Under the pieces are notes generated by a model. That model ran no database searches. It was not told the origin of the DNA and saw only the letters and a program-made list of their open reading frames with translations. This document shows, in pieces, positions 14,161 to 46,960 of a DNA stretch of 64,000 bases (the first letter of the stretch is position 1; each line of letters begins with the position of its first letter). Position numbers and translations under genes: made by a program. The DNA comes from Octopus vulgaris (lineage: Eukaryota), in contig OX597818.1 of the NCBI GenBank assembly GCA_951406725.2, forward strand, positions 120,280,001-120,344,000, read 5' to 3'.

Positions 14161-14397
14161 TCGAAGTCGATAACTGATACTATGATTCAAATTATTATGG
14201 CGTAAAAAGGAAATAAATCACTACAGTTTTCTTCCTGATTCATTATCATTGGCGGAAATGTAACCTCACAGTAGGTTGCTGCAGTGAAGGATACCAAACA
14301 TACCGCTCAATATTATTATGTACTATAATTGTTTTTGCAGATTAGACTGCTGAAGTATTACAATTCTGACTTTTAGAATTTTGTTAGTGGTAATAGT

Positions 14398-14810
14398 GGA
14401 TCTTTTCGGTTTGAACGGCAGTTTTTAACATAATTTCTAGGTAACTAAAAGATTTAAATCTTCGTATACTGGTAGAATGTGTTTATAAAGCATCTTTTTC
14501 TCTTGGCTTTATTGAGAAATTCTATAGTTTGTAAGATATCTGTTGTTTTTTCTTCAATTTCTGCAATTTCAACCAATCAATGACGTCTATTCAGGTGAAA
14601 ACATTCTGTGCCGTATGAATATGTCCCTCGTTTAAGAAACAGATTGGGTTTATTTACATTTGTGAAGAAAAAAAGATACCCTTCTCCCTACCCCTAACCC
14701 TAACCCTAAAACAGATTGAAATGCAATAGATCGATACTAGGGTCATAATTATGGGTGACAATTTCATATGACACCGCTAGAAAAAACTGCCGTTCAAACC
14801 GAAAAGAGCC
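14398..14810 (+). mobile_element. TIR element (GGATCTTTTCGGTTTGAACGGCAG family) with internal (CCCTAA)3 and a 37-bp flanking direct repeat
   Basis: ~29-bp TIRs; 14361-14397 equals 14811-14847 with 1 mismatch. Confidence 0.9.
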
Positions 14811-15496
14811 CAATTCTGACTTTTAGAATTTTGTTGGTGGTAATAGTTTTTATCTGTTTCTCGATTTAATACCATCACCTAATTTTTGGATAACTTAAAC
14901 AGAATCCATCCTGTTGTATTTCGATCAGGTACCATGTATACCCCCCTAGTCTCGGAGACGCTGTAAACGGTCACAGGCGACTAAACCTTAATAAGAAAAT
15001 TGATATGCAGTTCGAAAATTAATATGCAGTATACTCTTTCAATCAAACTCTGTGTGTGTGTTTGTGTGTGTGTGTGTGTGTGTGTGTGTGTGTGTGTGTG
15101 TGTGTGTGTGTGTGTGTGTGTGTGTGTGTGTGTGTGTGTGTGTGTGTGTGTGTGTGTGTGTGTGTGTGTGTGTGTGTGTGTGTGTGAATCAATATCGAGA
15201 ATAAATCATCTGGTGGTAGAGATTTGGCAAGGCAAGTCTAGAAAAAACATTTTACGCAGAGTTAATTAATTCATATGTTCTGTGGTGTGTAACGTAATTT
15301 TTATAGAAACACTATTATAAGCTAAACACTTGTCAGAATTTTATTGGAAAACCAGCTTTCAGAATATCTTATTTTTACTTTGCACTAATTTCATAATGTC
15401 CAACTCCTACGTCTTTCAGGGCACTCATACTGTTGGCACGACAGTGAAACAACTCTACATAATTCTCTCCTTCGATGGTATACTTCAAGATTGAAA

Positions 15497-16065
15497 AGGT
15501 GGCGAGCTGGCAGAAACGTTAGCACGCCGGGCAAAATGAGTAGCCGTATTTCGTCTGCCGTTACGTTGTGAGTTCAAATTCCGTCGAGGTCGACTTTGCC
15601 TTTCATCCTTTCGGGGTCGATAAATTAAGTACCAGTTACGCACTGGGGGTCGATGTAATCGACTTAATCCGTTTGTCTGTCCTTGTTTGTCCTCTCTGTG
15701 TTTAGCTCCTTGTGGGTAGTAAAGAAATACCTATTTCGTCTGCCCTTACGTTCTGAGTTCAAATTCCGCCGAGGTCGACTTTGCCTTTCATTCTTTCGGG
15801 GTTGATAAATTAAGTACCAGTTACGCACTGGGTCGATGTAATCGACTTAATTCGTTTGTCTGTCCTTGTTTGTCCTCTCTGTGTTTAGCCCCTTGTGGGT
15901 AGTAAAGAAATACGTATTTCGTCTGCCGCTAAGTTCTGAGTTCAAATTCCGCCGATAAATTAAGTAGCAGTTATGCACTGGGGTCGATGTAATCGACTTA
16001 ATACCTATGGCTGTGCTTGTTTGTCCATTCTATGTTTAGCCTCTTGTGGGTTATAAAGAAATAGG
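15497..16065 (+). mobile_element. SINE B trimer (one head plus two headless units)
   Basis: Three tandem bodies; ACTTCAAGATTGAA duplicated on both sides. Confidence 0.9.
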
Positions 16066-16126
16066 TAGACTTCAAGATTGAAGATCACAACAACCAGACG
16101 CAAACTGTCTTCGCTACATTGCATAT

Positions 16127-16551
16127 TTACTCTTTTACTTGTTTCAGTCATTTGACTGCGATCATGCTGGAGCACCGCCTTTTTTAGTCGAGCAAATCGA
16201 CCCCAGGACCTATTCTTTGTAAGTTTAGTACTTATTCTATCGGTCGCTTTTGCCGAACCGCTAAGTTACGGGGACGTAAACACACCAGCATCTGTTTCAA
16301 GCGATGTTGGGGCGACAAACACAGACACACAAATATATACACACATACATACATATGTAAGTATGTGTGTGTGTGTATACATATATACGACGGGCTTCTC
16401 TCAGTTTCCGTCTACCAAATCCACTCACAAGGCTTTGGTCGGCCCGAGGCTATAGTAGAAGACACTTGCCCAAGGTGCCACGCAGTGGGACTGAACCCGG
16501 AACCATGTGGTTGGTAAGCAAGCTACTTACCACTCAGCCACTTCTACGCCT
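16127..16551 (-). mobile_element. SINE family A, full length
   Basis: Near-consensus copy. Confidence 0.9.
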
Positions 16552-16589
16552 ATGCGTATGTCAATGTTATTACAATGTGAAGTCAATGT

Positions 16590-17060
16590 TGGTTTCAAAT
16601 TTTGGAACAAAGCCGGCAGTTTTGGAGGAGGGGGTAAATTGCTTACATCAACACCAGTACTGAACTGGTACTTATTTTATCGACTCCGAAAGGCTGAAAG
16701 GCAAAGTCGACCTCGGCGAATTTGAACTCAAAATGTAAAGACAAACGAAATGTCGCTAAGTATTTTACTCTGCATGCGAATGATTCTGTCAGCTCGCCAC
16801 CTTGATGTGAAGTTAATATTGAAAGGTCATAGGGCGGCGAGCTGGCAGAAACGTTAGCACGCCGGGCGAAATGCGTTGCCGTATTTCGTCTGCCGTTACG
16901 TTCTGAGTTCAAATTCCGCCGAGGCTGACTTTGATTTCATCATTTCAGGGTCAATAAATTAAGTAGCAGTTACGCACTGGAGTCGATGTTATCGACTTAA
17001 TACCTATGTCTGTCCTTGTTCGTTCCCTCTCTGTTTAGCCCCTAGTGGGTAATAAAAAAC
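16590..17060. mobile_element. Divergent (head-to-head) pair of SINE B-type copies: ~16590-16803 minus and 16831-17060 plus
   Basis: Plus copy has TSD AATATTGAA(A/C)GGTCATA. Confidence 0.8.
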
Positions 17061-44660: not shown

Positions 44661-44849
44661 TACATATAAACACACACATATATATGCATAGACATACATA
44701 TATGCGTGTATGCGTGTGTGTGTATGCTATAGTGTCTATCAGTGTGACAGTATAGAAAACACAAATAGAACTAGTGTTGAGGAATATGTGTGTATATGTG
44801 TTTTTCCGTACGTGTGTGCATAAGTGTGTGTGTGGTGTCTATGTGTGTG

Positions 44850-45144
44850 CAGTGGCGGACTGGGCCTAGAAATATTGGTTGCCAGGAGACTAAGGCGGCC
44901 CACCCGCAACTACAGTGCGATCATTTAATTGTTTTATTATTTATTTTTAAAGCATTCTTTTCAACTGTCTACAAACACAGCCAGGCTGAAATAATCAATG
45001 CATTCTTCCAGGAGTGAATAAAAAAATTCTCAAACTTGAATGGATGGACATCTTAGATACTAACATGGCCCCCATATATGGATTTTAATGGTGCAGGGGT
45101 CCACTTGCATCGGGCAACCTGGCAACCTGGCTAGTCCGCCACTG
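44850..45144. mobile_element. hAT-type MITE
   Basis: Perfect 12-bp TIR CAGTGGCGGACT / AGTCCGCCACTG; 8-bp TGTGTGTG on each side. Confidence 0.85.
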
Positions 45145-45544
45145 TGTGTGTGTGGTGTCATGCGTGCGTGCGTGCGTACATGTGTGTGTGTGTGTGTGTG
45201 TGCGTGTGTGTGCGCGCATTAAAACGTAAAGTAGGTTAGTTATACTTCCATTACTGCACAGTTTCACTGTTGTGGAATTTCGATGTGTACGTTGCCTTTA
45301 GTGAAATCTTGTGTCGTGACCAACAAAAAGGATTACGTCAGGATCTTTTAGTGTTAGCTTTCCTTGCATGTGCTGTACAAGTAATTAAATTAAAATGCGT
45401 GGTGAATGTTCGAAGTTTCTCGTGTAGAATGAAAGTTTATAAAAAAACAGAGAATTGGTGAGTATAAGCTCGAAATGAAGATGCTTGGCAACATGATAAA
45501 AAAAAGAAGAAAGCAACAAACAAAACTGTATATCAATATCTAAC

Positions 45545-45870
45545 AGGCACTCCGTCGGTTACGACGATGAGTGTTCCAGTCAATTCAATAAACAGAACAG
45601 CCTGGTCGCGAAATTACAGTGCAAGTGGCTGAATGCTCCACAAACACGCGTGCCCCTGACGTAGTTCTGAGGGAGATTCAGCGTGACACAGAAAATCTAT
45701 CAAGCCTGGCCCTTTGAATTACAGGTACAAGTCATTTTTGCCAACTGTAAGGTCTGAAGCTTATATGAAATAAAGTGTCTTGCTCTGGAGGCACCATGCG
45801 CCACCAGGAGCCGATCTAACGACATGACGATCGTGAGTTGAATGTTCTAACTACTAAGCCGCACGCCTTT
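45545..45870 (-). mobile_element. SINE family D, diverged
   Basis: Reverse-strand homolog of the 28152-28440 element. Confidence 0.7.
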
Positions 45871-46358
45871 ACAAATCAATATCTAGAAAAGAAATATGAA
45901 GCTTAATTATTCTATTTTTTTTTTCTTTTAGAACTCATTAACCGATCGTGCAAACGATCTTGCGATCTTAAAATTACAAAGCGAACTTAATAACTTCATA
46001 ACGACATCGTTATGCCTGAGCCCTTGGATAAAAATCTATTTTAAACGCCATCTGCTTCATTATCAGCATTCATGCCTTATTCGATATTGTATTTTTTATC
46101 ATGATATCTTCGTTAAAATTGAATAAATTATGCTACATAGTTTTATGAAATGTGAATGATAAAATCAAGTACATGAAAATAGATTGCTTCAGTTGACTTT
46201 GTCAATACTGATACGCTAATTTCAACGATGTGATTTAACTCCAGGTCATTTTAGTTAAAAGATTTTTCAATTGTAACTGACCCATAATTTTTCCTCTTTT
46301 CTTACAATCAGCCTGTCCATTACAACACAATGAGTCCTGTGTTTCTAAGACAGTACAG

Positions 46359-46802
46359 GGATCTTTTCGCTTTGACCGGCAGATTTTTTAAATAATTTCT
46401 TTGTAACTAAACACTTTTAAACTTCGTATACTGGTAGAATGTGATTATAAAAGATCTTTTTCTCTTGGTTTTCTTGAGAAAATTCTGTAGTTTGCCGGTC
46501 AAAGCGAAAAGATCCCTGTACTGTCTTAGAAACACAGGACTCATTGTGTTGTAATGGACAAATTATTGTTGTTGACAAAGATCCGGAGAAATTATAGTCA
46601 CCTCAATAGATGTCATTGATTGGTTGAAATTGCCGAAATGCAGGAGATTAAACAACAATTAACTTACAAACTACAGAATTTTCTCAAGAAAGCCAAGAGA
46701 AAAAGATGTTTTATAAACACATTCTACAAGTATACGGAGTTTAAAAGTGTTTAGTTACAAAGAAATTACTTTTAAAATCTGCCGGACAAAGCGAAAAGAT
46801 CC
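46359..46802. mobile_element. TIR element related to 14398/36631, with 8-bp TSD, ~130-bp inverted arms and an internal inverted copy of its left flank
   Basis: CAGTACAG at 46351-46358 and 46803-46810; TIR GGATCTTTTCGCTTTG. Confidence 0.9.
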
Positions 46803-46960
46803 CAGTACAGTGTAATTTGAGCGAGATTTACTTGCTATTTCTAGCAGCTCGCGTGACTGTAGATTATTAGTTCTTAATAAATGAGTCATTGTATAATTAT
46901 GAAAGGGTTGCAAAAGCAAAGCCACTTACTTTCAGGATATTTAATACAAAGTAAAATGTT

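What the first reader, a model, noticed from the sequence alone, without database searches (positions are those of the whole stretch)
14361..46810. TIR transposon family with highly variable flanking duplications (8, 37 and 215 bp) and internal telomeric repeats
Seen: three elements share the TIR GG(A/G/C)TCTTTTCG(G/C)TTTGA(A/C)CGGCAG. Copy 46359-46802 has an 8-bp TSD (CAGTACAG), copy 14398-14810 has a 37-bp direct repeat and copy 36631-36945 has a 215-bp direct repeat. In each case the repeats abut both TIRs exactly. Two copies carry internal TTAGGG/CCCTAA repeats. Established: eukaryotic cut-and-paste transposases normally make short, fixed-length TSDs; long variable direct repeats are known from bacterial IS1549/IS1634-type elements. 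Inference: this family may integrate by uncoupled strand transfer or replication-fork-associated insertion, or use local hop and gap repair, so that it duplicates host DNA. GG-starting TIRs with an 8-bp TSD would fit Merlin-like or Zisupton-like drivers, but no transposase is present in the window.
Basis: partly seen in the sequence, partly recalled or inferred. Interest (0 to 1): 0.85.

Follow-up and report, generated by a model that had tools for sequence, protein, structure and literature searches.

The report
Merlin-type MITEs with occasional long duplications
These are three copies of an abundant small jumping element that normally duplicates 8 bases where it lands; about 4 in 100 copies instead sit between two copies of a 17-215-base stretch, which the three empty sites checked carry only once, likely because the element's two ends were joined to the chromosome in separate steps, the second often by host repair.

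Summary
In detail: 37-bp (36/37), 215-bp (207/215) and 8-bp repeats abut the TIRs. A related species lacks both long-repeat elements and has each segment once, so the duplications came with the insertions. The family is not a variable-TSD family, though. Of 289 other two-ended copies, 217 have 8-bp, 14 have 7- or 9-bp, 46 no and 12 (4.2%) long duplications; shuffled flanks gave 0 of 296. Long repeats are as diverged as 8-bp TSDs (4.9 vs 4.8%), none exceeds 215 bp, and 6 of 15 have one disturbed junction. A second GG/8-bp MITE family has them too (3 of 44). It is a non-autonomous, probably Merlin-type MITE (no partner transposase found). The long class most likely comes from uncoupled, one-ended integration, as known for retroviral integrases; hybrid-element insertion is the main rival. 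The TTAGGG tract is an ordinary family feature (276 of 289). The scan noted long-TSD MITEs before only in prokaryotes. Real, modestly new.

The parts
14361..14397 (+). left copy of 37-bp duplication
   Evidence: single copy at the empty site in organism C
14398..14810 (+). MITE copy 1, 413 bp: one long arm plus a 29-bp short end; TIRs 14398-14426 and 14782-14810; (CCCTAA)3 at 14692-14709
14811..14847 (+). right copy of 37-bp duplication (1 mismatch)
36416..36630 (+). left copy of 215-bp duplication; no other genomic match found
36631..36945 (-). MITE copy 2, 315 bp, same subfamily in opposite orientation, internally deleted; TTAGGG units 36738-36781
36946..37160 (+). right copy of 215-bp duplication (8 mismatches)
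   Evidence: single copy in organism C
46351..46358 (+). left 8-bp TSD of copy 3
46359..46802 (.). MITE copy 3, long-armed (foldback) subfamily: left arm 46359-46494, right arm 46559-46802
46493..46560 (-). inverted 68-bp copy of left flank (45 bp) plus TIR (23 bp) filling the interior of copy 3; likely gap-repair filler
   Evidence: 100% identity to 46314-46381
46803..46810 (+). right 8-bp TSD of copy 3

Best explanation
The three elements are non-coding MITEs of a high-copy GG-ended family, probably Merlin-driven, that usually makes an 8-bp target duplication, and about 4% of copies carry a 17-215-bp duplication that most likely arose during insertion when the two ends were joined in separate steps. 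Inferred steps: the transposase joins one end at a normal target; the freed host 3' end is extended by strand displacement for tens to about 200 bases; the second end is then joined further along on the other strand, by a delayed strand transfer (clean junction) or by host end-joining (filler or small indel); fill-in leaves D-element-D. Shown: the 8-bp rule, the 4% long class, single-copy empty sites at three loci, equal age, the size range and the one-sided junction damage. Copy 3 is a separate event, an ordinary 8-bp insertion whose interior was likely broken and patched from its own flank.
For: Frequency: 12 of 289 de-duplicated non-window copies (4.2%, CI 2.2-7.1%), 13 of 300 with later copies; control 0 of 296 shuffled flank pairs. 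Empty sites: organism C skips exactly 450 = 413+37 in two runs of two studies and 590 = 315+215+60 in one run (the extra 60 bp read as a difference inside the segment); one paralogous repeat copy gives -71 for L221, while 11 of 13 eight-bp copies with a paralogue give mainly -8. Age: 54/1112 = 4.9% substitutions between long repeats vs 84/1736 = 4.8% in 8-bp TSDs. Junctions: of 15 long cases 9 are clean on both sides and 6 disturbed on one side only; the base next to the element is mismatched at 9 of 30 junctions (p 1e-5 against 5%, 0.02 against a generous 14%). Size: all 15 are 215 bp or less; no longer repeat abuts both ends in 21 no-TSD copies read to about 4.7 kb; p about 0.001 under a log-uniform 14-1000 bp model. 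Analogue: one-ended retroviral integration finished by host enzymes gives long host duplications (PMC5041404, passages), and an XMRV provirus with a damaged end had a 273-bp duplication (PMC2857682, passages).
Against: Nine of 15 long cases, both window copies among them, have two clean junctions, which hybrid-element insertion predicts as well. Damaged termini are not significantly enriched: 8 of 146 vs 4 of 147, p 0.26. The target-preference test is post hoc, has only 30 half-sites and fits no model cleanly: the half far from the junction looks like a normal target, the adjacent half does not. Two of the six disturbed cases have other causes at hand (L231 has a damaged element end, L324 a neighbouring copy). 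The junction comparison is biased, because ordinary insertions with filler fall into the no-TSD class. No transposase with this TIR was found. Retroviral one-ended events reach thousands of bp and often truncate the end; that is not seen here.
Confidence: 0.5

Rival explanations
1. Two-step alternative transposition (hybrid-element insertion, or recombination between copies that landed close together on sister or homologous chromatids): an element first inserts with an 8-bp TSD, then ends from two chromatids reinsert a short way off and leave D-element-D plus a reciprocal deletion.
For: Gives exactly this structure and age. Described for P and Ac/Ds (PMC3744419, passages; the P papers seen only as its citations). 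9 of 15 long cases are clean at both junctions. 46 of 289 copies lack a TSD and could include the deletions.
Against: Predicts normal 8-bp target preference and clean joints at both ends, but the adjacent half scores below true TSDs (p 0.001-0.002) and 6 of 15 have one disturbed joint. The Ac duplications reported run from 8 kb to Mb, whereas these stop at 215 bp. No joint for an 8-bp-TSD allele appears among the joints listed for the runs laid (contigs only, list cut). Deletions could not be shown (too sparse).
Confidence: 0.3
2. Host repair alone: a break at the edge of an already inserted element, or capture of an excised element into a staggered break, is filled in and duplicates the neighbouring segment, with no special behaviour of the transposase.
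For: One-sided junction damage. Sizes match repair-mediated duplications (mean 162 bp, PMC2671141, passages). These foldback-derived elements rearrange often: copy 3, and 18 of 20 long arms with no partner end within about 9 kb.
Against: Element ends are mostly complete and the repeat usually abuts both TIRs within a base or two. Later breaks should give younger repeats, yet divergence equals that of 8-bp TSDs. The junction-distal half carries the transposase's target preference (p below 0.001 vs random).
Confidence: 0.15
3. One reading: a family whose normal mode is long, variable target duplication, like IS1549/IS1634.
For: Two of three window copies are long; lengths vary from 17 to 215 bp.
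Against: 231 of 289 other copies have 7-9-bp TSDs. The variant third bases seen in the two window copies do not mark a long-TSD subfamily (5 of 90). A second family shows a similar tail (3 of 44).
Confidence: 0.03

Closest known systems
Merlin (IS1595/IS1016-related) DNA transposons and their MITEs (PMC8101967, passages)
   Same: 5'-GG termini, TIRs within 24-462 bp, 8- or 9-bp TSD, internal tandem repeats; many Merlin transposases in the same genome, one with a related terminus.
   Different: No transposase with this TIR found; the passages seen describe no long-duplication class.
One-ended (aberrant) retroviral integration: ASLV end mutants, HIV-1 with strand-transfer inhibitors (PMC5041404, passages), XMRV 273-bp duplication (PMC2857682, passages)
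   Same: DDE enzyme, one normal and one host-made junction, long duplication of flanking host DNA instead of the short TSD.
   Different: Induced or sporadic in cell culture, up to thousands of bp, ends often truncated; here inherited, about 4% of copies, 215 bp or less, ends mostly intact.
Hybrid element insertion (P) and reversed-ends transposition (Ac/Ds) (PMC3744419, passages)
   Same: Duplication that starts exactly at a transposon end; made while transposase is active.
   Different: Needs two element ends from a prior insertion; 8 kb-5.3 Mb in the experiments; only 3 of 7611 maize hAT insertions had that (different) structure.
IS1549 and IS1634 (PMC2266710, passages)
   Same: Long direct repeats of variable length (8-514 bp) abutting both ends.
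   Different: Bacterial, another transposase family, long repeats reported as their characteristic product; here a 4% tail on an 8-bp rule.
Gap-filled Pack-TIRs and repair-mediated duplication (PMC8277862, PMC2671141, passages)
   Same: Explains copy 3: nearby DNA copied into a broken TIR element.
   Different: Puts the copy inside the element; does not by itself give repeats abutting both outer ends.

Membership tests
Merlin MITE | Termini begin 5'-GG | tested here: met
   12,065 exact TIR matches
Merlin MITE | 8- or 9-bp TSD | tested here: met
   217 8-bp and 7 9-bp of 289
Merlin MITE | TIR of 24-462 bp | tested here: met
   29 bp in copies 1-2, about 245-280 bp in the copy-3 subfamily, about 400 bp in palindromic relatives
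Merlin MITE | Autonomous partner with DDE_Tnp_IS1595 transposase between the same TIRs | tested here: inconclusive
   None among 40 distinct transposase loci examined of 150 scored and 476 candidates. L094/L095 end in a related terminus (GG plus TTTCGGTT core, shared at length with family B), one end only.
IS1549/IS1634-type long variable DR | Long variable DRs as the usual product | tested here: not met
   12 of 289
IS1549/IS1634-type long variable DR | IS1634-family transposase | not tested
   No partner known; no family search was made for it
Hybrid element insertion / alternative transposition | Both junctions precise with normal target preference | tested here: inconclusive
   9 of 15 clean; adjacent half below TSD score, far half TSD-like
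Hybrid element insertion / alternative transposition | Reciprocal adjacent deletions and 8-bp precursor alleles | tested here: inconclusive
   46 no-TSD copies, empty sites mostly unavailable; no precursor joint listed
One-ended integration finished by host repair | One normal and one aberrant junction | tested here: inconclusive
   6 of 15 one-sided, none of family A clearly two-sided; 9 clean
One-ended integration finished by host repair | Linked to a defective end | tested here: inconclusive
   8 of 146 vs 4 of 147, p 0.26
Zisupton | Zisupton transposase with these TIRs (8-bp TSD is recalled, from no call) | not tested
   No search made

The most novel reading that the evidence does not exclude
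Merlin/IS1595-type transpososomes have a built-in uncoupled mode in the germline: in about one insertion in twenty the second strand is joined 17-215 bp away, with a ceiling near one nucleosome or Okazaki-fragment length. That would be a eukaryotic counterpart of the unexplained IS1549/IS1634 long repeats, on record at hundreds of loci in one genome, and a steady source of short tandem duplications.
Probability: 0.3. Interest if true: 0.65.

Novelty: new variant of a known kind. Interest (0 to 1): 0.4.

Why it matters
Fixed TSD length is used to classify DNA transposons and to call their ends, so a 4% class with long duplications is filed by pipelines as 'no TSD' or as host tandem repeats. With 12,065 exact ends, hence roughly 6,000 or more copies, the genome should hold a few hundred such loci (extrapolated). 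That is enough to measure size, junction and target rules of non-concerted integration in an animal germline, a process otherwise seen mainly in drug-treated or mutant retroviruses and in two bacterial IS elements for which PMC2266710 (2008) reports no mechanistic model. It is not a new transposon class, and duplications beside transposon ends are known in kind.

Tried and rejected
Variant third base (as in both long window copies) as marker of a long-TSD subfamily: 5 of 90 selected copies long, not significant. Pre-existing tandem duplication: rejected at three loci. The 215-bp segment as part of a repeat: only the two local copies found. Longer duplications hidden in the no-TSD class: none in 21 copies read to about 4.7 kb; 244 of 289 copies had at least 1 kb on both sides. 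Autonomous partner: not found in 40 Merlin loci, in 20 ten-kb extensions of long-armed copies, or as Merlin remnants inside long copies. TIR pattern in metagenome and viral contigs: 0; in papers: 11 hits, all unrelated by title. A small Merlin family as control: only 17 ends. Reciprocal deletions via paralogous sites: too few. Neighbour-similarity test for local hopping: not used, some values looked unreliable. Telomere function: no support; 276 of 289 copies have at least one unit, mostly 1-6. The family-B control stayed at 44 copies and the far end of the L094 Merlin element was not read. Runs X4, X20 and X24 were uninformative on precursor alleles at the 215-bp locus (fragmented contigs; 2 reads). 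PMC2528002 and PMC7023781 (passages) added nothing. No supplements were opened; TE libraries in supplements or databases could already name this family. My notebook says 48 Merlin loci and 13/305; the checked figures are 40 and 13/300.
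Full report
1. Observation. The TIR pattern matches seven times in the window, against 0 in 100 shuffles. Copy 1 (14398-14810) lies between 37-bp repeats (36/37 identical) and copy 2 (36631-36945) between 215-bp repeats (207/215); both repeats touch the TIRs. 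Copy 3 (46359-46802) has a perfect 8-bp TSD. Copies 1 and 2 are one subfamily in opposite orientations: a long arm plus a 29-bp short end, related to palindromic elements of about 850 bp. Copy 3 belongs to a long-armed subfamily, and its interior is replaced by a perfect inverted copy of 45 bp of left flank plus 23 bp of TIR. The window is G000:C5:120280001-120344000 in a 2.8-Gb genome; other notes of this scan call the host an octopus (not tested by me).

2. Family census. The exact TIR occurs 12,065 times. I collected copies by BLAST, by exact and variant TIR patterns and by fetching 80 regions around listed places. One search classified 296 two-ended entries. One search dropped the 3 window entries and 4 with a flank under 40 bp, leaving 289: 202 with an 8-bp TSD (0-1 mismatch), 15 with 8 bp and 2 mismatches, 7 with 9 bp, 7 with 7 bp, 46 with none, and 12 with a long repeat (4.2%, CI 2.2-7.1%). 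One of 11 later copies was also long, giving 13 of 300. Shuffled flank pairs gave 0 long and 5 short matches in 296. Long cases occur in the BLAST (2 of 74), variant-G (6 of 72), consensus (3 of 62) and rare-variant (1 of 52) sets, and not in the variant-C set (0 of 27). The sample is not strictly random: BLAST sets favour intact copies and the consensus set comes from one contig. Lengths, window copies included, are about 17, 28, 34, 37, 49, 53, 68, 71, 72, 75, 80, 118, 123-131, 155 and 215 bp. No longer repeat abutting both ends turned up in 21 no-TSD copies read to about 4.7 kb per side.

3. Did the duplication come with the element? Yes at the three loci that could be tested. At copy 1, one contig in each of two runs of organism C (two studies) skips exactly 450 bp, element plus one repeat, while runs of organisms A and B carry both element junctions. 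At copy 2, one contig of organism C skips 590 bp, element plus one repeat plus 60 bp that I read as a lineage difference inside the segment. For L221 one paralogous repeat copy holds the 71-mer once; the same test gave mainly -8 for 11 of 13 eight-bp copies that had a paralogue, and was uninformative for L054 and L324. Long repeats differ by 54 of 1112 bases (4.9%) and 8-bp TSDs by 84 of 1736 (4.8%; capped at two mismatches), so both date from the same period of activity.

4. Is it special to this family? No. Family B, another GG-ended MITE with 8-bp TSDs (1,028 exact ends), has 3 long repeats in 44 copies (about 49, 64 and 99 bp; the 64-bp case is weak). I have no control from another superfamily.

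5. Driver. Merlin elements have GG ends, 24-462-bp TIRs, 8-9-bp TSDs and often internal tandem repeats (PMC8101967, passages). The genome has at least 150 Merlin transposase matches, some between other GG TIRs with 8-bp TSDs. None of the 40 distinct loci I examined lies between this family's TIRs. Two transposase loci end in a terminus shared at length with family B and in its GG...TTTCGGTT core with this family; only one end was seen. Merlin is therefore likely, not shown. The TTAGGG tract is in 276 of 289 copies and needs no special explanation.

6. Mechanism. Of 15 long cases, 9 are clean at both junctions and 6 are disturbed at one (filler or small indels); two of the six have other possible causes. 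The base next to the element is mismatched at 9 of 30 junctions. Normal TSDs have a weak palindromic preference. At long-repeat junctions the four bases far from the element score like true targets (0.50 and 0.39 vs 0.50; random -0.49) and the four adjacent bases do not (-0.20, -0.16). This test was post hoc and small. It argues against both junctions being full normal transposase reactions and against both being random. I infer uncoupled integration: one end is joined normally, displacement synthesis copies tens to about 200 bases, and the second end is joined later by transposase or by host end-joining (0.5). The same logic is established for retroviral integrases (PMC5041404, PMC2857682, passages). 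Against it: terminal mutations are not significantly enriched (8 of 146 vs 4 of 147) and most cases are clean. Hybrid-element insertion (0.3) predicts the clean cases, but also reciprocal deletions, precursor alleles and a long size tail, none of which I could show. Pure host repair (0.15) fits the sizes but less well the equal age and the target signal. Copy 3 fits gap filling from nearby DNA (PMC8277862, passages).

7. Novelty. Long variable repeats are known for IS1549/IS1634 (8-514 bp, PMC2266710, passages), and duplications at transposon ends for P and Ac/Ds (PMC3744419, passages; the P papers not read). My searches (listings, plus the passages named) found no report of a percent-level, size-limited long-TSD class in a Merlin or other animal MITE; the library lacks most subscription papers and I opened no supplements. 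A repeat annotation paper for an octopus (PMC13282606; first third of the text and passages) lists Merlin and MITE counts and has no mention of TSDs in its main text. Earlier notes of this scan report long-TSD MITEs in prokaryotes only, and none of those listed concerns this element.

8. Verdict. The headline of a variable-TSD family with telomeric repeats is not supported. What remains is a real, recurrent 4% side product of a probably Merlin-type MITE family, with a plausible but unproven one-ended mechanism. New variant of a known kind; interest 0.4.

Noticed in passing
window 36300-36389; L374 and L375 (G000:C10, 178 kb apart): An abundant repeat whose end reads like a Helitron 5' end (label recalled) shares an 11-bp word with this TIR. 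A 1.1-kb copy sits inside two composite MITE copies that each have an 8-bp match at their flanks, so the composite may have moved as a unit.
   Followed up: no
L139-L158: Long-armed subfamily: 18 of 20 arms have no partner end within about 9 kb, many stopping near position 240-260; two are internal deletions with the TSD kept (L149, L158).
   Followed up: partly
L091 6525-6627: A TIR followed by a fold-back copy of its flank, 0.6 kb from a Merlin ORF; the same kind of inverted flank capture as window copy 3.
   Followed up: no
L324 1977-2958: Repeat-element-repeat-element-repeat array: a long-duplication locus that amplified further.
   Followed up: partly
window about 14557-14603: CCAAT plus TGACGTC stretch in the arm is the part best conserved in related elements of organism C; it could be the promoter or a binding site of the parent element.
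   Followed up: no
L147 7662-8153: 164-aa ubiquitin-conjugating enzyme reading frame without a break (Pfam E 6e-54), about 1.2 kb from a solo arm; perhaps a retrocopy.
   Followed up: no
L075, L076, L078, L079, L089, L110: Other Merlin families with TIRs and 8-bp TSDs, 1.4-2.1 kb, some with open frames over 300 aa; at least four more GG-ended MITE families.
   Followed up: partly
window 53956-54384 and 62674-63531: Mariner HTH fragment and reverse-transcriptase fragment, unrelated to the finding.
   Followed up: no
window 33-1164; 54736-56966: 166-bp tandem array, and nested inverted repeats of 239-274 bp at 95%.
   Followed up: no
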